A stretch of DNA of 64,000 bases from a virus, in the IMG/VR virus record IMGVR_UViG_3300013125_000002. One strand, 5' to 3'. Made by a program: the position numbers and the translations under genes. Positions 3,089 through 62,963 of the stretch are shown here, piece by piece (the stretch's first letter is position 1; each line of letters begins with the position of its first letter). The notes below the pieces were generated by a model that was not told where the DNA came from, did not search any database, and was given only the letters and a program-made list of their open reading frames with translations.

Positions 3089-3790
3089 CTAGTCTTCAGC
3101 GAAGCCGCCTGCCCCTACAGGCTTGGGGTTGATCCCCGTGACTTGCTGACCTGCTAAGGGAGCCCGTTTCTGTGCAGCAACCCGCCGAACTTTGACCTCT
3201 TCCTTGGCGGAGCTGAGAGCAGTAGCTTGAGCAACCGCTTTCGAAACAGGTCGGCGAGTGACAGAAGGTGCAGCAGGAGCAGGGGCCACAGCCTGTTGAA
3301 TGGTGTTGGTGTGCCCCAACGAGAGCTTCTCGATCTTCGAGAAGTAGTCAGGTCCTTGACAGATGATCAGCTCTGTGTCTTCTGTCCCTGACGAAGCCAG
3401 CTCGTAGACCGCTCCTCGTGGGAGGACGACACTCTGGTGAACTCCTACCTCCTCAGGTGTCTTTCCATCAACAGCAACGAAAAGTCGTCCCGAAAGGACC
3501 CTGACCACACGGTCTTGATCCTTGTTGGTGATCTTTCCAGTGTTGTTTTTGGCACAGAGGTAGTAGTAGAGAACTTCGAAATCTGGACCCTCGAAGATGG
3601 TGATCTTCCACCCATTCTCCGTCGGTGTCCGTCGGGACATGTCAGCTAGCTGGACGGAGTGTGGACCCTGACGATTCATGATCTCACTATGTCTACGCCC
3701 AGCGCGAGGATCGATTTGCCGACGGGGTCTAGCTTGCTTGGCCGCCGCCCGCATGGGATTAAACGACATCATAGTCTCCTGTAGGTCCAT
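3089..3790 (-). CDS. Hypothetical protein with cupin-like beta-barrel domain
   Basis: DRVVRVLSGRLFVAVDG...SVVLPRGAVYEL resembles cupin motifs. Confidence 0.5.
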   Translation of the reverse strand: MDLQETMMSFNPMRAAAKQARPRRQIDPRAGRRHSEIMNRQGPHSVQLADMSRRTPTENGWKITIFEGPDFEVLYYYLCAKNNTGKITNKDQDRVVRVLSGRLFVAVDGKTPEEVGVHQSVVLPRGAVYELASSGTEDTELIICQGPDYFSKIEKLSLGHTNTIQQAVAPAPAAPSVTRRPVSKAVAQATALSSAKEEVKVRRVAAQKRAPLAGQQVTGINPKPVGAGGFAED

Positions 3791-3863
3791 CAGTCGATCA
3801 CAATCTGGTTCTAGGATTGCAGGGACCCTCTAACTTGTCAACGATGTTGAAGAATCGGAAGAA

Positions 3864-4700
3864 CTAGAGAGTTTCGGGGGCGAGCTTGGTCTCGATATAG
3901 GCGACGGGATCGAGACCTGCTTCACGGATGGCACGCTGACGACGTTCCTGGAGCTTATCGATACGTTTCATAGCAACGTGCTTACAGTGTCGAGCGGGGT
4001 GGGACTTGCGGATGAGGTCCTTCTCAGTAGCTTCCTGCTCTGCAAGATACTGCTGGATCTGTTCTCGCTTCTGGGTCAAGGGACCGTCAGCAAACTGCTG
4101 ACGCTCAAGCACCAAAGCTTGGCCTTTTTGCCGCAGCTTCTCGATATTCTCGCTGAGAACTGCGATCTCATCCTCGACCTGCTTCGACCGAACCACATAC
4201 TCCTGCTCAGTCTGAATCATCTGGTCCAGTGCAACGCGACTCTGCGCCAACGCCTCAGCCAATTCCGTCAGCTTCTGGTGATGAGGCAGACCAGCAATGT
4301 CAGCATCAGCCTTGGCGATGATGATCTTTTGGTCATCGATGTTGTCCTCGATCACCGTCAGTCGACCATCAAGCCATCTTTGGATGCGCTCCTGACTCTG
4401 GTCCGGTTGAGTATCCGAAGCTGGCTCCTTGCCTTCCTTAGCCAGCATCTCCGCCTTGACGATCTCTGCAGTCTTGGCTACCCACGCGCGATAGTTCTTT
4501 CGAGCACAGCTGCAGAGAAGCTCCTGCTTGACCGTGTTGTTGCCCTTGACAGTCACCGTCTGCTGGCCGACGACACCACGCCCGTTGCAGTCCTTGCACC
4601 CTGGTTTTGCCCAGTCCACTGGCTTCGAAGAGGGCTTCCTCTTCTCCACCTCAACCATGATGGGTTCCGGAATGTCGCCTTGTACTCTGATCTTTGCCAT
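3864..4700 (-). CDS. Hypothetical protein, N-terminal CxxCxGxG zinc finger plus coiled coil
   Basis: CKDCNGRG...LCSC; heptad-rich C-terminus; GGAGAGG RBS. Confidence 0.6.
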   Translation of the reverse strand: MAKIRVQGDIPEPIMVEVEKRKPSSKPVDWAKPGCKDCNGRGVVGQQTVTVKGNNTVKQELLCSCARKNYRAWVAKTAEIVKAEMLAKEGKEPASDTQPDQSQERIQRWLDGRLTVIEDNIDDQKIIIAKADADIAGLPHHQKLTELAEALAQSRVALDQMIQTEQEYVVRSKQVEDEIAVLSENIEKLRQKGQALVLERQQFADGPLTQKREQIQQYLAEQEATEKDLIRKSHPARHCKHVAMKRIDKLQERRQRAIREAGLDPVAYIETKLAPETL

Positions 4701-5004
4701 GGTTTCCTCTCCAGCAGTAGGTGTGTGCCAACAAGTGGCTAGTGGCTAGGTCTCCGAGACCTTAACTTCCGTAGTTGTCTGATCTCCAAGAATGAGGGCT
4801 GCTGTGCCTCTCTTTGGCGGGCAAGAGCACGCTGAGCTTCACGAGTTGCTGTCTCTTGAGCTTGAGAGCCTGAGCAAGTGCAGGGCTGCACTACTCCAGC
4901 TTCTTCGTAGTAGACAGCCCCGCAAAAGGTACACCTAAAGCTCAGCCCAGATGATGGATTTAATACTGACAACCGATCCCCTCGTGCCCAAAGATGGATC
5001 AGGG

Positions 5005-5030
5005 TAGGCTGGTTCTAGGTAGGTTGTCAA
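5005..5030 (-). promoter_or_regulatory. Sigma70-like promoter (TTGACA-N18-TACCCT) with CTGGTTCTAG element in spacer
   Basis: Perfect -35 upstream of 4739..4972. Confidence 0.4.
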
Positions 5031-5311
5031 GCCCGACTGAATGACTGACCGATGCCTTGACCTTCAAGGATTTCAGCAGCCCAGTGCCCAGGCCAATCAT
5101 GTCGATCTCGAATGAGCCCATTGGGGATCTTCTCGAACAACATGAGACTCGCCTCGATCTTGTCAGAGGGACTCGGTTCCTCTGTGTGAGCACAGCCAGC
5201 TGCAACGAAAGTCCCATCCCCAAGCTGCAGCAGGGCCACCTTCCCCTTACTGGCTTTCACTTTCCCTTCGGAGATCATCTGACACAGTGGACAATCTAGC
5301 ATGTGGATCAC
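5027..5311 (-). CDS. Hypothetical protein (N-terminal CxxC)
   Basis: Fits the minus-strand gene train. Confidence 0.5.
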   Translation of the reverse strand: MIHMLDCPLCQMISEGKVKASKGKVALLQLGDGTFVAAGCAHTEEPSPSDKIEASLMLFEKIPNGLIRDRHDWPGHWAAEILEGQGIGQSFSRA

Positions 5312-5536
5312 CTAGTTCATCTGAGCAGGAAGCTGAGGAATCTTGAAGCTCACCTTACCGTTGTCATCAAACCAACCATAAGCCAGAAGCTGTCCGTCTT
5401 TGGTCCTGACCTCACCAGCCACGTCAGTTGACGTAGCCTCGACCTTCGCAGCAGTACGAAAAACACACTTTGCAGCGAGGAACAAAGCTTGGTTTCGTGC
5501 ATGCACCTGAGTGCGGTCTACTACTTCGATCTTCAT
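5312..5536 (-). CDS. Hypothetical protein
   Basis: ATG with G-rich RBS, abuts neighbours. Confidence 0.5.
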   Translation of the reverse strand: MKIEVVDRTQVHARNQALFLAAKCVFRTAAKVEATSTDVAGEVRTKDGQLLAYGWFDDNGKVSFKIPQLPAQMN

Positions 5537-5545
5537 GGATACCCC

Positions 5546-5770
5546 CTACTCAGACTGAAGTCTCTGGCTAGACTGATGTCTGATCTCTTTATGGAAGTAC
5601 TTCCCTATCGATTCCGCCGAAAGGAGCAGCGGATAGTGGCACGCCAATCCTGGATAGAGATAAGCAGACCCATTCTTGAACTGGACGATCAGGTCATCAT
5701 CTCGGGTACCGATGGCCAGAATGTGTGACGACTCGACCTCAGACCACTCGTTCGCTTCGAATGGGTTCAT
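5546..5770 (-). CDS. KTSC domain protein
   Basis: VESSHILAIG...LIVQFKNGSAYLY...LLSAESIGKYFHKEIR matches KTSC consensus; likely start ATG 5770. Confidence 0.85.
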   Translation of the reverse strand: MNPFEANEWSEVESSHILAIGTRDDDLIVQFKNGSAYLYPGLACHYPLLLSAESIGKYFHKEIRHQSSQRLQSE

Positions 5771-5996
5771 TCCAGACTCGTTTATTGGTGCAGCTCTTAC
5801 AGAGCTTGGTGAGCTTCTCGCCATCCTTCTGCAGCCCGCAACCAACCTCGACCTCTTTACCACAATCCTCACAGAAGTGGCAATGACTTCTGATCTCAGA
5901 AGCTAGCTCCAGCAGTTCTGCCGAAAGCAAAGGAATGTGATTCTTGATTGCTTCTGAGATAGCTGTGATTTTCTGTGAGATTTCCAAAAGCTTCAT
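5739..5996 (-). CDS. Hypothetical zinc-finger protein
   Basis: CEDCG...LCKSC. Confidence 0.5.
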   Translation of the reverse strand: MKLLEISQKITAISEAIKNHIPLLSAELLELASEIRSHCHFCEDCGKEVEVGCGLQKDGEKLTKLCKSCTNKRVWNEPIRSERVV

Positions 5997-6010
5997 TGGT
6001 CACCATGAGA

Positions 6011-6430
6011 AACCACCAGAAACCAAGAATAGTTTCTGGTGGTTCATCTGGAATTTGGGAAAAGGAAGAGGAAAAATGAGGCATCATCGGCCATGGTGTG
6101 CCTCCCCGTCCATCACAGTTTGAGACCGCTAGGCGACTGGGCACGAGGGGGTGACGTGGGAGTCGCTGATTTCTCAAACTGTGATCTCAGAACCATCAAA
6201 CCATCCTCGGTTGCTGGGATGGTCATGATTCTGAGAGCCGAGAACCCCGCCAGATGATAGTTGCTACCATCCTGGGTTCTCGCCCCCGACACCCCACCAC
6301 GAGGGTGAGGATCGTGAGCAGTAGCGGCGGCTGGTACTGCCCCAGCAATCACTCGGTTATGAACCGAGCAGGTCTCTTTCTCCATCCCACCGCAACAGTT
6401 GTCACCAAAGATGATCTTCAATGACAACTC
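6011..6430 (-). ncRNA. Unclassified large structured ncRNA (~420 nt) ending in a terminator-like hairpin
   Basis: Intergenic; about nine helices including perfect 14-bp stem 6112-6125/6172-6185 and long-range pairing 6057-6070/6374-6388. Confidence 0.7.
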
Positions 6431-6459
6431 AAGCACCGTACTCCCCTCTACTCTGAGTG

Positions 6460-6747
6460 TCAACCATCTTTTTGTGAGAGTTGCCGACCGTGAGAGAGCC
6501 CTTCAAGATACCATAGGAAATCACGACGGGGGACTGTCCCCTGACACTTCTTGCACTGATACCGTCGGTCTCGAATGGGCTGGCCAGGGGCAAGAGGTAG
6601 AGGAACAAACTCATGGGGAGCTTGACAGCCACGGAGTCTCTTTCGATTCTCCTCAGCTTCCTTGAAGACTGCTTTGATCCCGTCGAGTGTATCCGACATG
6701 AGATTCCTCCCACTCACCAACCTACCCTCTGATCCCTCCTGTGGCAA
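6460..6747 (-). CDS. Hypothetical protein (CxxC)
   Basis: Gene train; YQCKKCQG. Confidence 0.5.
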   Translation of the reverse strand: MPQEGSEGRLVSGRNLMSDTLDGIKAVFKEAEENRKRLRGCQAPHEFVPLPLAPGQPIRDRRYQCKKCQGTVPRRDFLWYLEGLSHGRQLSQKDG

Positions 6748-6749
6748 CT

Positions 6750-6929
6750 CTACTCCTCGAGATCTCGAGCCTTCAGTGTACCCCGCCCCTCATCGGCTTT
6801 GCAGGTCTGCACCGCCTTGATCACCATCTCACCAACCTTCTTGTTGAGTGCCTCGACGAACTCTGCTGAAGTCCGCAGCTGGGCAACCTTGACCAGCTCC
6901 TTCACCTTGCTGACAACAACCAGAATCAT
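6750..6929 (-). CDS. Bacterial-type histone-fold protein (Bd0055/HBb-like), 59 aa
   Basis: MILVVVSKVKELVKVAQLRTSAEFVEALNKKVGEMVIKAVQTCKADEGRGTLKARDLEE; RxTxxxxD histone motif, AAGGAGAG RBS, own promoter; below ORF-track cutoff. Confidence 0.85.
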   Translation of the reverse strand: MILVVVSKVKELVKVAQLRTSAEFVEALNKKVGEMVIKAVQTCKADEGRGTLKARDLEE

Positions 6930-6957
6930 GGAACTCTCCTTTGTGGGCTCCTACTTT

Positions 6958-6989
6958 TATAATACGAATGAAGGGGCTTTCAGAGACAC
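6958..6989 (-). promoter_or_regulatory. Phage-specific bipartite promoter GTGTC-N16-TTCGTATTATA (copy 1)
   Basis: Same motif and spacing at 4 intergenic sites. Confidence 0.75.
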
Positions 6990-7059
6990 ATCGAGAGGCA
7001 CTTTTTACTGAAGCAACAGAGAGCGTGCGGTACCGCACGTTAAGGGGAGAGTTCTAGAA

Positions 7060-7767
7060 TCAGGCTGTACGTCGATGCAGGTCCAGGAAGAGGTCGGAAG
7101 GTTCGATGGACAGGATGCGTGCTGCCAGACCTTCCACAGCACTCCTACGCTGCTCTGGTGTGTCTCTATCGACATCCCAGGGCATATCAAGAATCGTGAC
7201 CCCCTGCTGACGCAGAACCGCCACCATGTGGTCAATCTCTCGGTCAAGCATCTTGAGGTACTCGAGGTCGATGCCCCTCTCACACTGCCGACCAGTCTGG
7301 TTCTCCATGCGCCTGCTGATACGACGATTGCAGGTTTCAGGATCAACAAGCACCCGCACGCAAACCGTTGGCAAAAGAACCGAAGCAGTCATGGCATGGT
7401 AGATCGACTGATAGGTTGCAAATTCTCGCTCTGACATGAGACCCATCGTCCGCTGTAGCCGTGCGAAGGCAGTGTCCCCGTAATAGCTGCGGTCCAGAAC
7501 AGCACAGCCCTTCATCTGCATCGCATGCCACTGAGCTAGCTGGTGCATCCGAAAGCGCAGACCAAGAAGATGAAGCTGCATGGTGAGAGACCAACGATTT
7601 GGGTCGCTGTAGTAGTCCGCGAGATAGGGGTTTGCTCCCGCCCTCTCATCAGGCTCTTTCAGAGTGAGGGTTGTCGGTCCTAAGGCAGCCCCTAGTTCAG
7701 CAGAGAGTGTTGACTTGCCCGCTCCGATCAAACCTTCTACAGCAATCACTGGCCGGCTGTCTCTCAT
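7060..7767 (-). CDS. Deoxynucleoside kinase (dNK family)
   Basis: IAVEGLIGAGKST P-loop, EP, LDRS, RISRR...R..E, YLKML. Confidence 0.9.
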   Translation of the reverse strand: MRDSRPVIAVEGLIGAGKSTLSAELGAALGPTTLTLKEPDERAGANPYLADYYSDPNRWSLTMQLHLLGLRFRMHQLAQWHAMQMKGCAVLDRSYYGDTAFARLQRTMGLMSEREFATYQSIYHAMTASVLLPTVCVRVLVDPETCNRRISRRMENQTGRQCERGIDLEYLKMLDREIDHMVAVLRQQGVTILDMPWDVDRDTPEQRRSAVEGLAARILSIEPSDLFLDLHRRTA

Positions 7768-8099
7768 GGTGATCTCCTATTCTGACTCATCCATTTGATC
7801 AGCCCACCGTGTTGCATTATCCACAGACCCATTCGGCAGGGCTGACTCCCTCCATGTGACTGGTACTCACCGCACGGTGTCTCACCCCATGGAGTGACCC
7901 AGACGGAACTCCCGTCTTTGATCTTGGAATCTTGCCCATGAACAGAACAGATCGCTTGCAGTCCATCAAAGGTCAGGAACTTACACTGCTGAGGCGGGGC
8001 TTCACCGTGGAGGGAGCCATCTGGCAACACTACTGCCAAATAGGTGCAACACCATCCACAGCGAAGACACTTCATTGTTCCTTCTTGAAAACCTTGCAA
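7764..8099 (-). CDS. YkgJ-like cysteine cluster protein
   Basis: CLRCGWCC...CKFL...CSVH...C. Confidence 0.6.
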   Translation of the reverse strand: MQGFQEGTMKCLRCGWCCTYLAVVLPDGSLHGEAPPQQCKFLTFDGLQAICSVHGQDSKIKDGSSVWVTPWGETPCGEYQSHGGSQPCRMGLWIMQHGGLIKWMSQNRRSP

Positions 8100-8537
8100 C
8101 GGAGAGCGAACGCCAACTCACCCTCATGAACACCGACCACCCTCACTACCGGAGTGCCAGGAAGTCTGATCTCGTATCCATCCTCATGAAGAACCTGGAC
8201 CAGAGCTTCAGCAATCTGCTGTGCCTGGGCTCGCTCTTCAGGTGTCACCGGAAGGGCCGGCTCTTTCTCTTCAGAATCACCAAGGGGCATAGCTTCCTCC
8301 TGCTAGGACAAATCCCAGCTGATGTGAATGGGAAGAACAGGGAGCACACAAATCCAAAGATCGAACTTCTGCAACTCAAGTCTAGTGAATGCACCAACCC
8401 ATAAGTCAGCTAGCTTCAGCTCCAAAGCTACCTGAAGACGACTAGTGATCTTCACACTACCCAGGGTGATCATCCACATTCCCCAGACGTGGGCTTCACC
8501 ATCCTCTACGGATTGGAAACGAAGTTCAAGAGGATTC

Positions 8538-8813
8538 TCAGAGGACCAGCTCGAGAAGACTCACACGTGGCCAATAGAGCTTGGGTCTGGCCTTGGAGCC
8601 AGGCAGAGCCGGGACCTGAACAAGATAGCTGTCATGATCTCGAGACAGGCTCCTCGGATCGACTGAATCCGAGTACTTCACCCGCTCGTCACTCGTGACA
8701 CCAGGCTTCTCATGAGCAGGAACAACCCGAACGACCGTTCCCACCTTGGTCTTCGTGCTCCCTGCGGCCTGGCTTTGCCATCCCACTCGATCTCCCACCT
8801 TGAAGGTCTTCAT
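8538..8813 (-). CDS. Hypothetical phage protein (SH3-like)
   Basis: FKVGDRVGW...YWPRVSLL. Confidence 0.55.
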   Translation of the reverse strand: MKTFKVGDRVGWQSQAAGSTKTKVGTVVRVVPAHEKPGVTSDERVKYSDSVDPRSLSRDHDSYLVQVPALPGSKARPKLYWPRVSLLELVL

Positions 8814-9106
8814 AGTCGTCTCTCCTCATCAATCTTCTTGTTCAAGATCCGCGCTGTTTGCCATCCAACTACACATTTCGGATCAACTGGCCGCGAATGA
8901 CGAGACCGCTTGGGCCATGCAGTGGTCCACAGATCAAGTACATCCTTCCGAAAGACTCGAGTCCGCCAAGACCACCGGCCTGGATTGGGGTACGGAATCC
9001 AAAAGGTCACATTGTAGGCGTACTCGTCTGCCCCAAGAACGATGGCCAAGTAGCCATCTCGGAACCATCTTCTGATCTTGAGAATCGAGTAGCGCGGATA
9101 GGTCAT
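8810..9106 (-). CDS. Hypothetical protein
   Basis: Downstream of promoter copy 2. Confidence 0.5.
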   Translation of the reverse strand: MTYPRYSILKIRRWFRDGYLAIVLGADEYAYNVTFWIPYPNPGRWSWRTRVFRKDVLDLWTTAWPKRSRHSRPVDPKCVVGWQTARILNKKIDEERRL

Positions 9107-9160
9107 CAGTTCAACTGAGACTCGGGTTTCCGTTCAAGGTTGTTCTCTGCCCCTACTATC

Positions 9161-9192
9161 TATAATACGAAGATGACCTATCCGTCGGACAC
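9161..9192 (-). promoter_or_regulatory. Phage-specific promoter GTGTC-N16-TTCGTATTATA (copy 2)
   Basis: Conserved motif and spacing. Confidence 0.75.
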
Positions 9193-9275
9193 CTTGCGCT
9201 TACGAATCCAACGGACAAGAGCAGAGATACCCAACAGGGTCAGCAGCACTTCAAATCCCCCACACAGACAAAGGA

Positions 9276-9581
9276 TCACTCTTCTGCCTCCTTAGCCCGA
9301 GCTGCATCTTCCCTACGGGCTTCAGTCCAATGAACCCGGGATGCAACTCGGACAGACTGCTCAGCAATATCTGCCAGTCTGATCAATGCATTGCCTCTCT
9401 CCCAAGCAGACATTGCTCGAAAGAAGTTGATCAAGCTTGCGTACTGTTCTGGGAGTCCGACAGTAGTCGAGAGAGGATCACAAAGATATGCAATCAGCCA
9501 GAGTGCTTTACTTCCATCATCTGCTGTGAGTCCCTCGAAGCTAGAAACCCACACCTCAACTTGAGTGCGATCATATCCCAT
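9276..9581 (-). CDS. Hypothetical protein
   Basis: ORF track, RBS-like GGGGTGA. Confidence 0.5.
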   Translation of the reverse strand: MGYDRTQVEVWVSSFEGLTADDGSKALWLIAYLCDPLSTTVGLPEQYASLINFFRAMSAWERGNALIRLADIAEQSVRVASRVHWTEARREDAARAKEAEE

Positions 9582-25289: not shown

Positions 25290-25321
25290 TATAATACGAA
25301 TGGCCCCTCCCTCTCGGACAC
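25290..25321 (-). promoter_or_regulatory. Phage-specific promoter GTGTC-N16-TTCGTATTATA (copy 3)
   Basis: Conserved motif and spacing. Confidence 0.75.
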
Positions 25322-34463: not shown

Positions 34464-36302
34464 CTATGCGAAAGTCATGATGGGTGTTCTTCTGAGTCGT
34501 TCCAGTGCAACGTTGCAGTAGTTGAGTGCATGCACGCTGTGTGGGTCAAGACCCAAATTGACCCACTCCATCTTGAAGCGACCGGTCTCCTCATCCTGGA
34601 CCGTCTTCTGTCGCACGATGCTCTTCATGTGCAGGTAGAAGTGCGTCTCGAAGATGTGGAGTGGTTCGTAGCGACCTGACTTTGGGCTCCGGCACACTTG
34701 AACAAGTGCCCGAGGGTGTGGCCATTCGAAGTCACGATCAGCAATCGATTTCATCGCCATCTCGATGGTGAGGTAGCGACTGAGAAGCACCGAGTACTTG
34801 AACTTGATCTTGGGTCCACCCTTCTTGACCGTTTGCTTCCACTTGGCTCGATCACCCCACTGGGCTACTTCCCTTTGCTGCTCGATGTACCAGGAGACAA
34901 AGACACGCTTTGGGTGATCTCGTGCGAACTCCATAGCCTCGTTGGCATTCGGCATCGCATCGATGATGCAGAGATCAACATCGTATTCCTTCATCAGCTG
35001 GTAGAGGCGCTTGAAAGGGGACTGTGGTTTCCCAGCTTCCCAGTAGAGCTGGTTGTGGTCATCAATGATCTCGAAATGGACAATGCGCTTCTTGTTCCCA
35101 AAGCGCTGGGCAATGACCACGTAAATGACACCGCTCATCTGATCCACACCCATGGCAGTGTGGCTCTTGCCCCCACCCCACATCAAATCAGTGTTCTCAC
35201 ACGCAATGAGATCATCATCAGTGACCGGAACATTCTCCTCGTCAACGTAGGGCTTGCCCAGTTTGGCGTTGAAAAACTCCTTGATGTTCTGGGTAGTCTG
35301 GTAGGCCTCCCAGATCTCAGCAGCAGTGATGAACTTCGAGAGCATCTGGTGGATGTGATAGCTGTGAACATTCGCTCCAGGATTGTGGGGGATGAACTGC
35401 CCATTCTGGGGATCGATGATCTTCATCTTGCAGCGTGGGCAGCGATAGTAGACCTCCCCTTTTTGAGTGAGAGCAATGCAATCTGGGAAGACCTCACTCA
35501 GGATCACTCCATCAGGGCAGTTACAGCGGGTATGCCAGAAGTTCTGAGTCCCTCGGAGGAACTGCTTGTGGATGTCGGCGTTAGGATAGCCAGCAGTTGA
35601 GACCTGGAGAACGTACTTGTAGGAGCTATGACTGATGCGCTCACGCGCCTGATCGATGTCTGCTGGATTGAGCAGTCGCACCTCATCGAATGCGATCATA
35701 TCGAAGGGTGTGGAGTCCTTCGACGCAATGCCACCCAGGTGTCTGAGGTAGAGCGCACTCTCCTTGCCAACCTGCTTGTAACCCAGGGTGTCAGAGTCCT
35801 TGACGGCCTCCTTCAACTCAGCATTGGAGTCGATGAGGGGAGACATACGATCTTTGCTGAGGAGTGTGACACCATCTTGGGTCGGGAAGAAGAAGCAGGC
35901 CTTGACAGCATTGTACATGCAGAAATGCAGTAGCTTGGTCAGCTCGAAGATCGTTGCCCCCATCTGAGCTGACTTCATAAGGGTGAACTCATGGGCTGTG
36001 TCGAGGTAGAGGGGGATCAAATAACGATGCTTGTCGAAGTCAAAAGGCCGGTGGTCAACTTTGAGACCGCTTGTAGCAACCCATAGCGCCAGGTTGACCT
36101 TGGTCAGAGCTCGTATCTGCTCTGGTGTGATGTTCTGCAGCCCCGAAGACTGTCCTAAGCTGCTCAAGTCAATCCCAGAGGGCGCCAGAGACGAGAAGAG
36201 GTCGTTAGCAGCCCCTGCACCTTTCGGCAGCTGTACAGGCGTCCTGGAGAGCTGCTGAATCGGTTTGGTGTAGGGTGTGCGTTTTGCGGTTGGGCTGCTC
36301 AT
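34464..36302 (-). CDS. Terminase large subunit (GpA-like)
   Basis: KSAQMGAT Walker A, IAFDE Walker B, VST motif, CxC/CPRC zinc sites, FFNAKLGKPY, MGVD nuclease. Confidence 0.88.
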   Translation of the reverse strand: MSSPTAKRTPYTKPIQQLSRTPVQLPKGAGAANDLFSSLAPSGIDLSSLGQSSGLQNITPEQIRALTKVNLALWVATSGLKVDHRPFDFDKHRYLIPLYLDTAHEFTLMKSAQMGATIFELTKLLHFCMYNAVKACFFFPTQDGVTLLSKDRMSPLIDSNAELKEAVKDSDTLGYKQVGKESALYLRHLGGIASKDSTPFDMIAFDEVRLLNPADIDQARERISHSSYKYVLQVSTAGYPNADIHKQFLRGTQNFWHTRCNCPDGVILSEVFPDCIALTQKGEVYYRCPRCKMKIIDPQNGQFIPHNPGANVHSYHIHQMLSKFITAAEIWEAYQTTQNIKEFFNAKLGKPYVDEENVPVTDDDLIACENTDLMWGGGKSHTAMGVDQMSGVIYVVIAQRFGNKKRIVHFEIIDDHNQLYWEAGKPQSPFKRLYQLMKEYDVDLCIIDAMPNANEAMEFARDHPKRVFVSWYIEQQREVAQWGDRAKWKQTVKKGGPKIKFKYSVLLSRYLTIEMAMKSIADRDFEWPHPRALVQVCRSPKSGRYEPLHIFETHFYLHMKSIVRQKTVQDEETGRFKMEWVNLGLDPHSVHALNYCNVALERLRRTPIMTFA

Positions 36303-53765: not shown

Positions 53766-53797
53766 TATCATACGAACGAGCACCCCCGGCCAGACAC
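53766..53797 (-). promoter_or_regulatory. Phage-specific promoter GTGTC-N16-TTCGTATGATA (copy 4)
   Basis: Conserved motif and spacing. Confidence 0.72.
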
Positions 53798-56301: not shown

Positions 56302-56874
56302 TCACGCCTTCTTGACTGGCGTGCGGACTACTGGTGTGCGCCGGATTGGTTGTGGCTGCGGAGATACCGGAGCCTGTGCTGCTGCCCGAGTCATGGGTGT
56401 GCGTTTGACTGGCGTCTTGCGCACCGCTGTCCGTTCCACCTTCGGCTGTTCCAGCTTCTCCTTGATCTTCTCGATCTGCTTCGCCTGTTCCTCCTTCAGA
56501 AGACTGGCTTCCTCTGCGAGTAGTGTGTCGATGAAGACCTCGGGGGCCTGGCGAGCTGCCTTGGCAGTGCTACCCTCGAGCACCTCGCACTGCTTGACCG
56601 ACCATACCTGGTCCTTGATCGTAGGCAGCTTGATCTTCGGATACCGCTTCAGAAGAGCAGTGTAGATGACCTCCACTGCTACTGAATGCCCGTAGATGTC
56701 AAAGCCATCCTTGGTCTTGCGCTCTGGCCGAGTGATTCCCAGTGACTCACCACAGCGAAGTAGTGTGCCAGCTCTCAGAGGTGATGGGTTGTCACCACTC
56801 ACGATCTTGTCCTCACTGCGTCGCGTACACCTCCCGAGAACCGGGAAGTCGAAGATGACTGCCTCGTACATCAC
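56302..56874 (-). CDS. Hypothetical protein with RTPV repeats
   Basis: C-terminal (R/K)TP(V/M) repeats. Confidence 0.6.
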   Translation of the reverse strand: MMYEAVIFDFPVLGRCTRRSEDKIVSGDNPSPLRAGTLLRCGESLGITRPERKTKDGFDIYGHSVAVEVIYTALLKRYPKIKLPTIKDQVWSVKQCEVLEGSTAKAARQAPEVFIDTLLAEEASLLKEEQAKQIEKIKEKLEQPKVERTAVRKTPVKRTPMTRAAAQAPVSPQPQPIRRTPVVRTPVKKA

Positions 56875-57536
56875 TCAGCAGTGTGGTTCTCGGTGTTGTT
56901 CTCCGCAGAGGCCTGAGCCGCACGACGGGCAGCCTCAGCAGCCTTCTCCTGAGCCGCCTTCTTGCCAGCTCGCTGAGCCGCCTCCTTGGCCTTCTCCTTG
57001 GCCGCCGCCTTGCCATCCCCATTCGAGCCGTTCGCCGGCTTGGCCTCCTTGGGCGCCTTGGCAGCCTTCTTCACCGGCTCCTTCTTGGCAGCCTTGGCGA
57101 CCTTCTTGACCTTCTCCTTGGGAGCCTTGGCAGCCTTCTTGGTGGTCTTGGGGGCCTTCTTCGCAGCCGCCTCCTTCTTGGCCTTGGGCTGACGCTTGGG
57201 CTTGTCCTCACTGGCCGAAGCCGTCACGTCCACCTTCTGGGCCGTCCACTCCTTGCCCTTTCTCGAGAGCTGGTAGGTGCCACGACCGAGGCTGGCCTTG
57301 GTGTGCGGGCCGTCCACCCAACCGTCCCTGCAGAGCCGACGGACGGAGTTGCGGACGAAGCTCTGCGCCTGGGCATCGACCTCCTTGTCACCCCAGCCCT
57401 TCTCGTAGGTCACGGCGCAGCGAGCCTTGGCATCCTTCACGAAGAGCTTCTTCAGCTCACGGATGTCGTGCTGCTCCCCGTCCTTGAGAACGTCGTACAG
57501 CTTCTGCTCTTTGTCGTTGAACCCCTTGATCTTCAT
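56871..57536 (-). CDS. Winged-helix DNA-binding protein with histone H1-like Lys/Ala tail
   Basis: VRNSVRRL.RDGWV...GRGTYQL wHTH; KKAAKAPK repeats. Confidence 0.65.
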   Translation of the reverse strand: MKIKGFNDKEQKLYDVLKDGEQHDIRELKKLFVKDAKARCAVTYEKGWGDKEVDAQAQSFVRNSVRRLCRDGWVDGPHTKASLGRGTYQLSRKGKEWTAQKVDVTASASEDKPKRQPKAKKEAAAKKAPKTTKKAAKAPKEKVKKVAKAAKKEPVKKAAKAPKEAKPANGSNGDGKAAAKEKAKEAAQRAGKKAAQEKAAEAARRAAQASAENNTENHTAE

Positions 57537-61399: not shown

Positions 61400-62509
61400 T
61401 TACTGAACGATCATCTTGTTAGCGGTCTTCTTCAGCGCATCGAGCACATCATCGATCTGAGTCTGTGTCAGCAGCTTCATGCGCTGCGGGAAGAACTCAT
61501 AGGTGTGCTTGATGCTCTTCTTGGGCGTGGGCTCGAGCGAGTGACCACGCTTTCTCATCTCCTCTGCGAGGAACGGGTTCATGTCGAGCCAGCCACCACC
61601 AGCCGCATTCACCCAGAGCCTCATCACATGCATGCCGTTGTAGAAGTAGATGTGGTAGCTCGCACGCTGGGAAAACTGGTATCCCTTCCCGTACTTGTCC
61701 ACGAACCACTTCTGACCGTACTCCCGCTGCTCCTTGGTGCCGACGCTCCAGTAGATCCAATTGTCAGGCAGCGTCTTGGGCTCGATCTTCTCCTGGAGCT
61801 GTCTCGCCAGATCATCAATCGGACGGTTCTGGTCGACGTAGGGGCGCCGCACCTTCTTCTTGGTCGGGTCGGTCTCCTTCTTCGCCTTGGCAGCCTTCTT
61901 CTTGGCCTTCTTGTTGAGCTTTCGGTTCTTGGTGTTCTTGGCGAAGTCGTCCTGGACCTTCTTGCCAGTACCCCCATGAACGAGCTTCATGAGCTTGGCA
62001 CCGTCCTCCTGGTCCAGCTCTGCCAGCTCCTCCTTCGCCGCGACATCCTCCTCGACCGATCCGATGGCCTGCGTGTGGACCGCCTCACAGAGCGTCCGCA
62101 ACCCACACTCGACCTCTGGGCAGTAGTTCTTCTCATCTGGTGAGTACCAGAGCTTGCCAAAGCACTCCGTCCCCTGGATGGCATCCCTGACCGAAGGACT
62201 CTGTGACTTGAGAATCCTCTTGATCACCGGCTCGAAGGGGTCCTCCTCCTTGGCCTGCTCCTCCGACTCATCCGGAAGATCATCAGGCAGGTCCTCCCCA
62301 TCCTCCGTCTCATCGTCCTCGATCAGCTGCCGAACCTGCTTCTTGCCACTCACGATACTATCCCCGAGAGCCTCCGACGAAGCCGGAACACTCAGAATCG
62401 GGGCTGGATCGAACTCGTCTTGCTTCAAGGCGCTACTCCCAACACGGGTCATGTTGTTCTCCAATGTCCTCGATGACTGCTTTGACGACTTCTCTGATTT
62501 TCGAGACAA
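61400..62509 (-). CDS. Hypothetical protein with Cys cluster (CFG...C...C...C)
   Basis: 369-aa ORF. Confidence 0.6.
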   Translation of the reverse strand: MSRKSEKSSKQSSRTLENNMTRVGSSALKQDEFDPAPILSVPASSEALGDSIVSGKKQVRQLIEDDETEDGEDLPDDLPDESEEQAKEEDPFEPVIKRILKSQSPSVRDAIQGTECFGKLWYSPDEKNYCPEVECGLRTLCEAVHTQAIGSVEEDVAAKEELAELDQEDGAKLMKLVHGGTGKKVQDDFAKNTKNRKLNKKAKKKAAKAKKETDPTKKKVRRPYVDQNRPIDDLARQLQEKIEPKTLPDNWIYWSVGTKEQREYGQKWFVDKYGKGYQFSQRASYHIYFYNGMHVMRLWVNAAGGGWLDMNPFLAEEMRKRGHSLEPTPKKSIKHTYEFFPQRMKLLTQTQIDDVLDALKKTANKMIVQ

Positions 62510-62963
62510 CGCGGCTCACCTTTCTTGGGTGCATCTGGAGAAGCTTGGCATAGCACAGCTGCTCACCGCACGTTGCCGTCTTGACCTTGGACACGAATTC
62601 CGGTGATGTGTTGAGCATCAACCGAAAGACTTCGATCTCTTCCACCCTGAGGTAACGCTCCGCCTCCTGGCAAAGAGTATCAAAGCCACGCTCGACGGGG
62701 GGCATGGTCTCTTCGACAGTAGCAAGGAGGTGCATCGGGAACCTCACCCGGTACACTCTCGCTTTCTGCATGTCTTTTCGATACCACGTCAACCTTCGGT
62801 GGAGGTAGCTAGAGAACTTCCCCGATCCCGCCTTCCACCGTCTCTCTGTCTCAACCGCTAGCAACCACAGGTCTCCGCGAATGTCATCCGGATCTAGGTC
62901 AGGGCAATCTCGTGCGATGAGATGAGTGAACTTGTGGATCATCTTCGCGCACGAGAGCAGCAT
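62433..62963 (-). CDS. Sigma-70-family (region 2/4-like) phage sigma factor candidate
   Basis: DDIRGDLWL..VE..RRW....KFSSYL..RL; C-terminal HTH; ATG 62963 overlaps CobT stop region. Confidence 0.6.
   Translation of the reverse strand: MLLSCAKMIHKFTHLIARDCPDLDPDDIRGDLWLLAVETERRWKAGSGKFSSYLHRRLTWYRKDMQKARVYRVRFPMHLLATVEETMPPVERGFDTLCQEAERYLRVEEIEVFRLMLNTSPEFVSKVKTATCGEQLCYAKLLQMHPRKVSRVVSKIREVVKAVIEDIGEQHDPCWE

What the first reader, a model, noticed from the sequence alone, without database searches (positions are those of the whole stretch)
6750..6989. Phage-encoded bacterial histone under a phage-specific promoter
Seen: a 59-aa ORF missed by the track, closely resembling Bdellovibrio Bd0055-type histones (LVV.SKVK..K....TSAE....L...V..AKADGR.T..ARD), with its own promoter and RBS. 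The window also encodes an H1-like Lys/Ala-tailed wHTH protein (56871-57536). Inference: phage chromatinisation for protection or packaging; hints at a host lineage with such histones.
Basis: partly seen in the sequence, partly recalled or inferred. Interest (0 to 1): 0.75.

Follow-up and report, generated by a model that had tools for sequence, protein, structure and literature searches.

The report
Phage-encoded Bd0055-type bacterial histone
An uncultured lake-water phage of about 150 kb carries a real 59-residue copy of the small bacterial histone first found in Bdellovibrio, switched on by the same phage-specific promoter as its DNA-recombination genes; such phage histones were listed by a 2025 survey, so this is a well-supported new member, not a new kind.

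Summary
Window 6750-6929 (-) is a 59-aa ORF with an AAGGAG ribosome site 6 nt before its ATG. It matches Bdellovibrio histone HBb/Bd0055 by sequence (E 3.4e-9; family profile 2e-19). Its predicted fold (pLDDT 92.8) matches HBb at TM 0.90 and rmsd 1.0 Å. The RxTxxxxD clamp, the alpha-1 lysines and the dimer-core hydrophobics are kept; HBb contact residues K52 and T8 are not.

The upstream "phage promoter" is also real. GTGTCY-N15-TTCGTATKATA occurs four times in the window, always intergenic and on the coding strand (0.07-0.2 expected). One copy heads the SSB/UvsX/SbcCD operon. In a related phage the histone gene lies between SSB and UvsX.

I therefore read it as a phage-made DNA-bending architectural protein, expressed with the replication and recombination genes. 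That fits better than a packaging protein.

Host inference from the histone fails. It falls in a phage-type clade, apart from the Elusimicrobiota and Bd0055 clades.

Bd0055-like histone-fold proteins in tailed phages were already catalogued (hLife 2025, PMC13681535), without functional work. This is a new member of a known kind. The scan also noted this same stretch in an overlapping window (e1-5782454), not on other DNA.

The parts
6750..6929 (-). 59-aa HBb/Bd0055-type alpha3-truncated histone-fold gene (6.5 kDa, pI 8.9)
   Evidence: ORF. phmmer to HBb E 3.4e-9. AF2 pLDDT 92.8 with helices 6-15, 22-45 and a one-turn helix at 54-56. Foldseek TM 0.90 and rmsd 1.0-1.1 to 9f0e, 9ezz and 8fvx.
6936..6941 (-). 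Shine-Dalgarno AAGGAG, 6 nt before the ATG
   Evidence: Read from the sequence.
6958..6989 (-). Bipartite promoter-like motif GTGTCT-N15-TTCGTATTATA, with a -10-like TATTAT at 6964-6959. It would give a leader of about 23 nt.
   Evidence: Four copies with identical spacing against 0.07-0.2 expected. No sigma-70 consensus site in 4500-9500.
7024..7039 (-). Perfect palindromic hairpin CGTGCGGTACCGCACG after the dNK gene. It is only weakly terminator-like because no T-run follows.
   Evidence: sequence.
7060..7767 (-). Deoxynucleoside kinase gene directly upstream of the histone promoter
   Evidence: Pfam dNK listed on the identical contig; PHROG 761.
9161..9192 (-). Second copy of the promoter motif, 55 nt before the ATG of ORF 8810-9106
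25290..25321 (-). Third copy of the promoter motif, followed by about 520 nt without a long minus-strand ORF
53766..53797 (-). Fourth copy (TATGAT variant), directly after the PolA stop. It heads the 191-aa / gp32-like SSB / UvsX / SbcD / SbcC gene row.
   Evidence: PHROG hits.
56871..57536 (-). H1-like architecture: a winged-helix-like N-domain plus a 100-residue Lys/Ala/Pro tail (net +23)
   Evidence: PHROG 2440 'transcriptional regulator' E 6.5e-5; no Pfam hit.
56302..56874 (-). 190-aa protein of no known family. Its homologues lie directly downstream of the histone gene in two other phage contigs.
   Evidence: blastp 30-37% identity, E 3e-12 and 5e-15; alignment A3.

Best explanation
The ORF encodes a genuine HBb/Bd0055-type ('bacterial dimer', alpha3-truncated) histone-fold protein made by an uncultured tailed phage of about 150 kb.

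Shown:
- Sequence and fold membership.
- Retention of the RD clamp (R49-D56, plus D46).
- Retention of the loop threonine (T51).
- Retention of the S-K-V-K start of helix 1 (S7, K8, K10, K14).
- Retention of loop-1 T20/S21 and of R55.
- Retention of the hydrophobic handshake residues (V9, L28, V32, M35, L57).
- A promoter-like motif shared with three other sites, one of which heads the SSB/UvsX/SbcCD genes.

Inferred:
- It forms a homodimer.
- It binds DNA without sequence preference through backbone and minor-groove contacts, and bends or coats it as HBb does.
- It is produced together with the replication and recombination proteins.
- It acts as the phage's own nucleoid-associated architectural protein on replicating or recombining phage DNA. 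The functional counterpart would be a phage-encoded HU such as SPO1 TF1, not a capsid packaging histone.
For: Identity:
- phmmer to HBb E 3.4e-9.
- Family profile to HBb 2e-19, HTkC 5e-19, HLp 1e-16, and classical HMfA/B about 1e-4.
- AF2 pLDDT 92.8; Foldseek top five hits are all HBb, TM 0.88-0.91 and rmsd 1.0-1.1.

DNA contacts:
- HBb contact residues come from PMC11317129. Mapped through the alignment, 7 of 10 are identical, N22 becomes R19, and 2 are lost.

Expression signals:
- SD site and motif geometry.
- The motif occurs 4 times against 0.07-0.2 expected, always intergenic and on the coding strand.
- One copy heads the 191-aa/SSB/UvsX/SbcD/SbcC row.

Context in relatives:
- L016, L017 and L086: the histone gene lies between SSB and UvsX, downstream of PolA.
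- P0004: 1.4 kb upstream of PolA and RecA.
- L015: after dNMP kinase and ThyX.
- L083: directly before a Helicase_C_2 helicase.
- The window itself: after dNK.
- No context lies beside structural genes.
Against: - No experiment, and no dimer or DNA-complex model (tool unavailable).
- K52 of HBb, the K of the 'RKT' DNA-contact motif, is G50 here, and T8 is V6. Affinity or binding mode may therefore differ.
- Net charge is only +2.
- The promoter assignment rests on motif recurrence and geometry alone. Neither the timing class nor the recognising factor is known.
- A candidate sigma ORF at 62433-62963 has no HMM support.
- Gene neighbourhood gives association, not function.
- The SSB-histone-UvsX order was seen in one phage lineage only.
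- Whether the target is phage DNA or host DNA is not resolved.
Confidence: 0.6

Rival explanations
1. Host-takeover factor. The phage histone coats or compacts the host nucleoid to shut down host transcription or replication, and does not organise phage DNA.
For: HBb-type binding is not sequence-specific (PMC11317129), so host DNA is an equally possible target. In L010 and L081 the gene is the first gene at a divergent junction among many small unannotated ORFs, a layout typical of early regions.
Against: In this phage it shares its promoter motif with the recombination operon. In a relative it is embedded between SSB and UvsX. Both point to phage DNA metabolism. Nothing discriminates the two targets directly.
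Confidence: 0.15
2. Interference with a host histone. The host itself uses Bd0055-type histones, and the phage copy heterodimerises with or displaces them, either as a dominant-negative or to redirect them.
For: The handshake-interface residues are conserved with bacterial homologues. Identity to Endomicrobiia and Elusimicrobiota histones reaches 56-61%. 17 of the 22 relatives in the phage-type clade (18 of 23 rows counting the window's own two-residue EE) carry acidic C-terminal tails that bacterial copies lack, which could alter the properties of mixed dimers.
Against: The host is unknown. The tree places the protein in a phage-type clade and not inside any bacterial clade, so recent capture from a host is not indicated. 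The window's own protein has only a two-residue 'EE' tail.
Confidence: 0.08
3. Virion chromatin. The histone is packaged with, or condenses, the genome in the capsid.
For: Giant-virus histones do this (background cited in PMC11390915).
Against: The gene is more than 27 kb from TerL (34464-36302), and the head module lies outside the window. No homologue sits by structural genes. From general knowledge, tailed-phage terminases thread naked duplex DNA through the portal, so DNA-bound dimers could not be co-translocated.
Confidence: 0.07
4. Histone-fold adaptor without DNA binding. It would be a protein-protein module, as in TAF or NF-Y type uses, or an otherwise neutral remnant.
For: Loss of K52 and T8 equivalents and a low net charge of +2. 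Some relatives are acidic overall, with pI 4.7-4.9.
Against: Eight of ten HBb DNA-contact positions are kept or made more basic, and the RD clamp is intact. The same positions are conserved across 31 relatives.
Confidence: 0.06

Closest known systems
HBb / Bd0055 of Bdellovibrio bacteriovorus (PDB 8fvx, 8cmp, 9ezz, 9f0e; Hocher 2023; Hu et al. 2024, PMC11317129)
   Same: - Same length class and the same alpha3-truncated histone fold (TM 0.90).
- 43-49% identity.
- RxTxxxxD clamp with the extra Asp.
- S-K-V-K start of helix 1, loop-1 T-S, and R in helix 3.
- Conserved hydrophobic dimer core.
   Different: - Encoded by a phage, not a bacterial chromosome.
- K52 becomes G50 and T8 becomes V6.
- One-residue insertion (E47) in the turn before loop 2, and one residue fewer in loop 1.
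- No Pfam PF00808 hit.
[quoted passage not shown]
   Same: The same kind of object: HBb-like singlet histone folds on tailed-phage metagenome contigs, predicted to be dimers, with function unknown.
   Different: That paper describes a C-terminal helix. This protein ends two residues after helix 3, whereas its closest relatives carry acidic tails. I could not check whether this very contig is among their 84 proteins, because no supplement is held. The promoter sharing and the SSB/UvsX linkage are, as far as the searches show, not described.
'Phage histones' category of Schwab et al. 2024 (PMC11390915)
   Same: An alpha3-type histone fold encoded by tailed phages.
   Different: That category has a C-terminal tetramerisation helix and lacks RxTxxxD. 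This protein has the motif and no C-terminal domain, so it is not a member.
Face-to-face histones HTkC (9f2c) and HLp (9qt0/9qt1)
   Same: The same alpha3-truncated fold (TM 0.80-0.85). Profile E-values are 5e-19 (HTkC) and 1e-16 (HLp).
   Different: The tetramerisation Arg and Asn of the face-to-face logo (R48, N52) correspond to T42 and E47 here. The single-sequence scores are also lower than to HBb: 29 bits (HTkC) and 18.5 bits (HLp) against 40 bits (HBb).
Phage-encoded HU-type protein TF1 of Bacillus phage SPO1 (from general knowledge, not tested here)
   Same: A small dimeric DNA-bending protein made by a large lytic phage and needed for its DNA metabolism. HBb is reported to bend DNA like HU/IHF (PMC11317129).
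   Different: An unrelated fold (HU versus histone). A preference for modified DNA is known for TF1 and only conjectural here.

Membership tests
HBb/Bd0055-type 'bacterial dimer' alpha3 histones | Significant sequence similarity to HBb and its cluster | tested here: met
   phmmer E 3.4e-9; profile of 31 relatives against HBb E 2e-19.
HBb/Bd0055-type 'bacterial dimer' alpha3 histones | Histone fold with a shortened alpha2 and a one-turn alpha3 | tested here: met
   AF2 pLDDT 92.8 with helices 6-15, 22-45 and 54-56. TM 0.90 and rmsd 1.0-1.1 to HBb chains.
HBb/Bd0055-type 'bacterial dimer' alpha3 histones | RxTxxxxD motif (RD clamp R51-D58 with T53) plus D49 | tested here: met
   R49, T51, D56 and D46, by the alignment. 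Motif definition from PMC11317129.
HBb/Bd0055-type 'bacterial dimer' alpha3 histones | Lysine of the R-K-T DNA-contact motif (HBb K52) | tested here: not met
   Gly50 at that position. Several phage-clade relatives also have G, A or M there.
HBb/Bd0055-type 'bacterial dimer' alpha3 histones | Conserved helix-1 lysines (logo K11, K13, K17; HBb K10, K12, K16) | tested here: met
   K8, K10 and K14 (definition).
HBb/Bd0055-type 'bacterial dimer' alpha3 histones | Lacks the face-to-face tetramerisation residues (R48, N52 of the FtF logo) | tested here: met
   T42 and E47 at the aligned positions (alignment to HTkC; definition).
HBb/Bd0055-type 'bacterial dimer' alpha3 histones | Forms a handshake homodimer and no higher oligomer | not testable with these tools
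The only indirect evidence is conservation of interface residues V9, L28, V32, M35 and L57.
HBb/Bd0055-type 'bacterial dimer' alpha3 histones | Binds and bends DNA | not testable with these tools
   Needs EMSA, TPM or a crystal structure.
[quoted passage not shown] | Encoded on a Caudoviricetes genome, with an HMM match to the Bd0055 profile | tested here: met
   TerL, PolA, SSB, UvsX and SbcCD in the window; match to HBb.
[quoted passage not shown] | C-terminus forms an extra helix (paper's description) | tested here: not met
   The protein ends at E59, two residues after alpha3. Relatives carry acidic tails of 5-28 residues.
Schwab 2024 'phage histone' category | C-terminal tetramerisation helix, and no RxTxxxD motif | tested here: not met
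   No C-terminal domain, and the motif is present.
Pfam PF00808 CBFD_NFYB_HMF | Match to the Pfam model at gathering score | tested here: not met
   No hit even at E<=10. NCBIfam and PHROGs also gave nothing.

The most novel reading that the evidence does not exclude
The histone, the H1-like winged-helix/Lys-Ala-tail protein (56871-57536) and the family-less 190-aa protein (56302-56874) would together form a phage-encoded chromatin system. In other phages the 190-aa protein's homologue travels directly behind the histone gene. The system would be switched on with the replication and recombination genes and would coat newly made phage DNA, for example to organise concatemers or to shield them from host nucleases. 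That would be a protein-based alternative to DNA modification or a phage nucleus.
Probability: 0.12. Interest if true: 0.8.

Novelty: new member of a known kind. Interest (0 to 1): 0.45.

Why it matters
Bacterial histones were recognised only in 2023, and their phage-borne copies have been listed but never studied.

This locus gives a concrete and compact test case. It is a 59-residue protein with a near-HBb fold and a defined promoter class shared with the SSB/UvsX/SbcCD genes. Relatives place the gene inside that same operon.

The resulting hypothesis is testable: the histone is an architectural factor of phage DNA replication and recombination. It also comes with candidate partners, namely an H1-like protein and a conserved 190-aa neighbour.

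The work also shows that the histone cannot be used to guess the host.

Tried and rejected
Searches that found nothing:
- Pfam, NCBIfam and PHROGs have no family for the histone.
- tblastn against 50,697 cultured-phage records: no match.
- The word-index protein search found only the protein itself.
- No whole genome is held for this window.
- A viral-contig scan with P0002 found nothing. A scan with the L016 histone found only the same phage lineage.
- The promoter motif is absent from all related loci except copies of the same phage at 99.97% identity. Those copies therefore give no information on selection either.

Tools or data unavailable:
- Complex prediction for the homodimer was unavailable.
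It was repeated with 5 rows.
- The single-sequence AF2 model was mediocre (pLDDT 74.5) and was superseded by the alignment-based model.
- The supplement of the hLife paper is not held, so I could not check whether this contig is in their list.

Ideas tested and dropped:
- Candidate sigma ORF 62433-62963/63209: no HMM support.
- The 190-aa neighbour: no family and no usable Atlas hit.
- Elusimicrobiota host. The genome scan returned 58 of 62 loci titled Elusimicrobia/Elusimicrobiota/Endomicrobia (3 more titled only 'bacterium', 1 Brocadiia/Planctomycetota). That scan was driven by one peptide pattern, VVSK[VI]Kx[LM][AV]K, which Bd0055 itself does not match. The tree does not nest the phage protein among them, so the idea was rejected as unsupported.
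- A CRISPR-spacer hunt for the host was considered and not run, because the expected yield was low.

Full report
**1. What is there**

On the minus strand, 6929-6750 is an ATG-started 59-codon ORF ending in TAG. AAGGAG lies at 6941-6936, six bases before the ATG. The same protein is called as a gene on seven public contigs:
- JGI samples 3300013138 (144.8 kb) and 3300013136 (134.5 kb);
- four Logan assemblies.

These contigs are 99.96-100% identical to the window. They are therefore the same phage and say nothing about selection.

**2. Is it a histone?**

Sequence:
- phmmer against all PDB chains puts Bdellovibrio HBb/Bd0055 first (8fvx, 8cmp; E 3.4e-9, residues 2-57).
- Next come archaeal HTkC (9.3e-6) and Leptospira HLp (0.025).
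- An exhaustive HMMER scan of 1.84 billion representatives finds 66 relatives at E<=1e-3. The closest are 64, 60, 58 and 57% identical.
- A profile of 31 of them hits HBb at 2e-19, HTkC at 5e-19 and HLp at 1e-16.
- The same profile also reaches classical histones: Methanopyrus histone-fold protein 2e-7, HMfA/B about 1e-4, and NF-YB.

Structure:
- AlphaFold2 with that alignment gives pLDDT 92.8. Helices are at 6-15 and 22-45, with a one-turn helix at 54-56.
- Foldseek's five best PDB hits are all HBb chains, at TM 0.88-0.91 and rmsd 1.0-1.1 Å.
- HLp and HTkC follow. Nucleosomal and NF-Y histone folds come next at TM about 0.6.

Curated libraries: no curated family library recognises the protein.

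Residue mapping through the alignment:
- HBb's RD clamp R51-D58 and the auxiliary D49 (PMC11317129) are R49-D56 and D46 here.
- Of the ten HBb residues with most DNA contacts, seven are identical: S9, K10, K12, K16, S24, T53, R57.
- N22 is Arg19 here. T8 is V6 and K52 is G50.
- The dimer-core residues V11, L31, I35, L38 and I59 are V9, L28, V32, M35 and L57.
- The Arg and Asn that build the face-to-face tetramer are T42 and E47.

The protein therefore belongs with the HBb-type 'bacterial dimer' group, with one defining contact (the K of RKT) missing. The dimer itself could not be modelled.

**3. Is it a phage?**

Yes. The window encodes:
- a large terminase, family-A DNA polymerase, gp32-like SSB, UvsX and SbcC/SbcD;
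- a thymidylate-synthase-like protein and a Ro60/TROVE protein.

TerL is only about 30% identical to any cultured phage.

**4. The promoter**

An AT-rich-island scan led to the 11-mer TTCGTATTATA. It occurs three times exactly and once with one mismatch, always on the minus strand. All four copies are preceded at exactly 15 nt by GTGTCY. The combined motif scores 4 observed against 0.07 or 0.21 expected, and no shuffle reached 4.

All four sites are intergenic:
- before the histone gene;
- before ORF 8810-9106;
- before an ORF-poor 520-nt tract;
- directly after the PolA stop, ahead of the 191-aa/SSB/UvsX/SbcD/SbcC row.

The motif contains a good -10 hexamer (TATKAT, 5 of 6). GTGTCY lies 19 nt upstream of it and is unlike TTGACA. 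A sigma-70 consensus scan finds nothing in 4500-9500.

The layout recalls T4 middle promoters, which combine a host -10 with an activator box (general knowledge), or an alternative sigma. Which factor reads it is unknown, and a proposed sigma ORF has no HMM support. The motif is absent from related phages. 'Phage-specific promoter' is thus supported as a motif class, not as a demonstrated promoter. Other first-stage notes list the same four sites (e1-5782476). I found them independently.

**5. Relatives and their contexts**

The closest relatives are phage-borne.
- P0002 (64%) lies two genes before a KTSC-domain gene, as in the window.
- L012 (55%, a 115-kb viral contig) is syntenic with window 3089-8099.
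- P0004 lies 1.4 kb upstream of PolA and RecA.
- In L016, L017 and L086 (PolA 51% identical to the window's) the histone gene sits between SSB and UvsX.
- In L015 it follows dNMP kinase and ThyX.
- In L083 it precedes a Helicase_C_2 helicase.
- In L010 and L081 it opens a rightward operon and is directly followed by a homologue of window ORF 56302-56874.

In the window, ORF 56302-56874 lies directly behind the H1-like gene. No copy is beside structural genes.

Two independent lines therefore tie the histone to the replication and recombination programme: a shared promoter motif in this phage, and physical insertion in the SSB-UvsX operon in a relative.

**6. Phylogeny and host**

A GTDB genome scan returned 62 loci, 58 of them titled Elusimicrobia/Elusimicrobiota/Endomicrobia, with 3 titled only 'bacterium' and 1 Brocadiia. 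The scan used a single peptide pattern that excludes Bd0055-like N-termini, so this enrichment is partly an artefact.

The tree has 116 rows and 61 columns, so resolution is low. It puts the window protein in a 23-row group (SH-aLRT 93, unstarred) with the phage-context sequences P0002, P0004, L012, L016 and L017. This group is separate from the Elusimicrobiota group and from the Bd0055 group. Three other viral copies (L013, L014, L015) sit at the base of the Elusimicrobiota group. The histone therefore gives no host assignment.

A clade feature: 17 of the 22 relatives in the phage-type clade (18 of 23 rows counting the window's own two-residue EE) have acidic C-terminal tails, net -2 to -15. 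The bacterial type ends 0-1 residue after alpha3. The window's protein has only 'EE'.

**7. Mechanism**

Most likely (0.6) it is a homodimeric, sequence-independent DNA-bending or coating protein, made with the DNA-metabolism genes and acting on phage DNA. Fold, motifs and the regulatory and neighbourhood links are shown. Dimerisation, DNA binding, timing and target are inferred.

Rivals:
- host-nucleoid takeover (0.15);
- interference with a host histone (0.08);
- virion packaging (0.07);
- a non-DNA-binding adaptor (0.06).

**8. Novelty**

- Schwab et al. 2024 (PMC11390915) defined the bacterial-dimer class and a different 'phage histone' class.
- The hLife 2025 survey (PMC13681535) reported 84 bacterial-like histone-fold proteins in Caudoviricetes, including Bd0055-like ones, from HMM searches and structure prediction only.
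- No functional study of phage Bd0055-like histones turned up.

This is therefore a new member of a known kind. The added context is the promoter class, the recombination-operon linkage, the acidic-tail clade feature and the conserved 190-aa neighbour. Interest 0.45.

Noticed in passing
window 56871-57536 (-): A 221-aa protein with linker-histone-like architecture. The N-domain has winged-helix structural neighbours (Mrr_N, MarR and ArsR types, TM about 0.6). Residues 106-205 hold 30 K, 31 A and 7 P, net +23. There is no Pfam or PDB sequence match.
   Followed up: partly
window 56302-56874 (-); L010:2108-2548; L081:5295-5765: A family-less 190-aa protein with a basic tail rich in R-T-P. In the window it lies directly behind the H1-like gene. 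Its homologues (30-37% identity) lie directly behind the Bd0055-like histone gene in two other phage contigs. It is a candidate conserved partner of phage chromatin-type proteins.
   Followed up: partly
L016:4495-7719 (also L017, L086): A related phage has the gene order PolA, 191-aa protein, gp32-like SSB, histone, UvsX.
   Followed up: yes
L013:5863-6171 and L014:5794-6171: In two viral contigs of 187-190 kb, the histone reading frame continues upstream without a stop into a Cys-rich segment (CxxC, CxxxxxC and CxC motifs). This resembles the ZZ-finger-histone fusions of Schwab et al. 2024. An internal ATG could also start a stand-alone histone.
   Followed up: no
phage-type clade of the tree (P0002, P0004, P0005, P0016, P0047, P0059, L012, L016 and others): 17 of the 22 relatives (18 of 23 rows with the window's own 'EE') carry acidic C-terminal tails of up to 28 residues (net charge to -15). 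These tails are absent from the 62 bacterial MAG copies. They are reminiscent of the acidic tails of phage SSBs.
   Followed up: partly
L018-L079 (GTDB genome contigs): Elusimicrobiota and Endomicrobiia MAGs carry a very uniform histone ending in G-K-K-K-T-L-G-A-E-D-L. Its loop is one residue longer than in Bd0055, the same loop length as in the window's protein.
   Followed up: partly
window 25290-25321 (-) and downstream to about 24770: A copy of the promoter motif is followed by about 520 nt without a long minus-strand ORF, possibly a non-coding RNA or leader.
   Followed up: no
hits P0006, P0007, P0009-P0011, P0013, P0015, P0018, P0021 and others: About a quarter of the 66 relatives are proteins of 118-189 aa that match the query in two stretches. 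These are tandem (doublet) versions of the alpha3 histone fold.
   Followed up: no
window 7024-7039 (-): A perfect 16-nt palindrome, CGTGCGGTACCGCACG, lies between the dNK stop and the histone promoter. No T-run follows, so it is at best a weak terminator.
   Followed up: no
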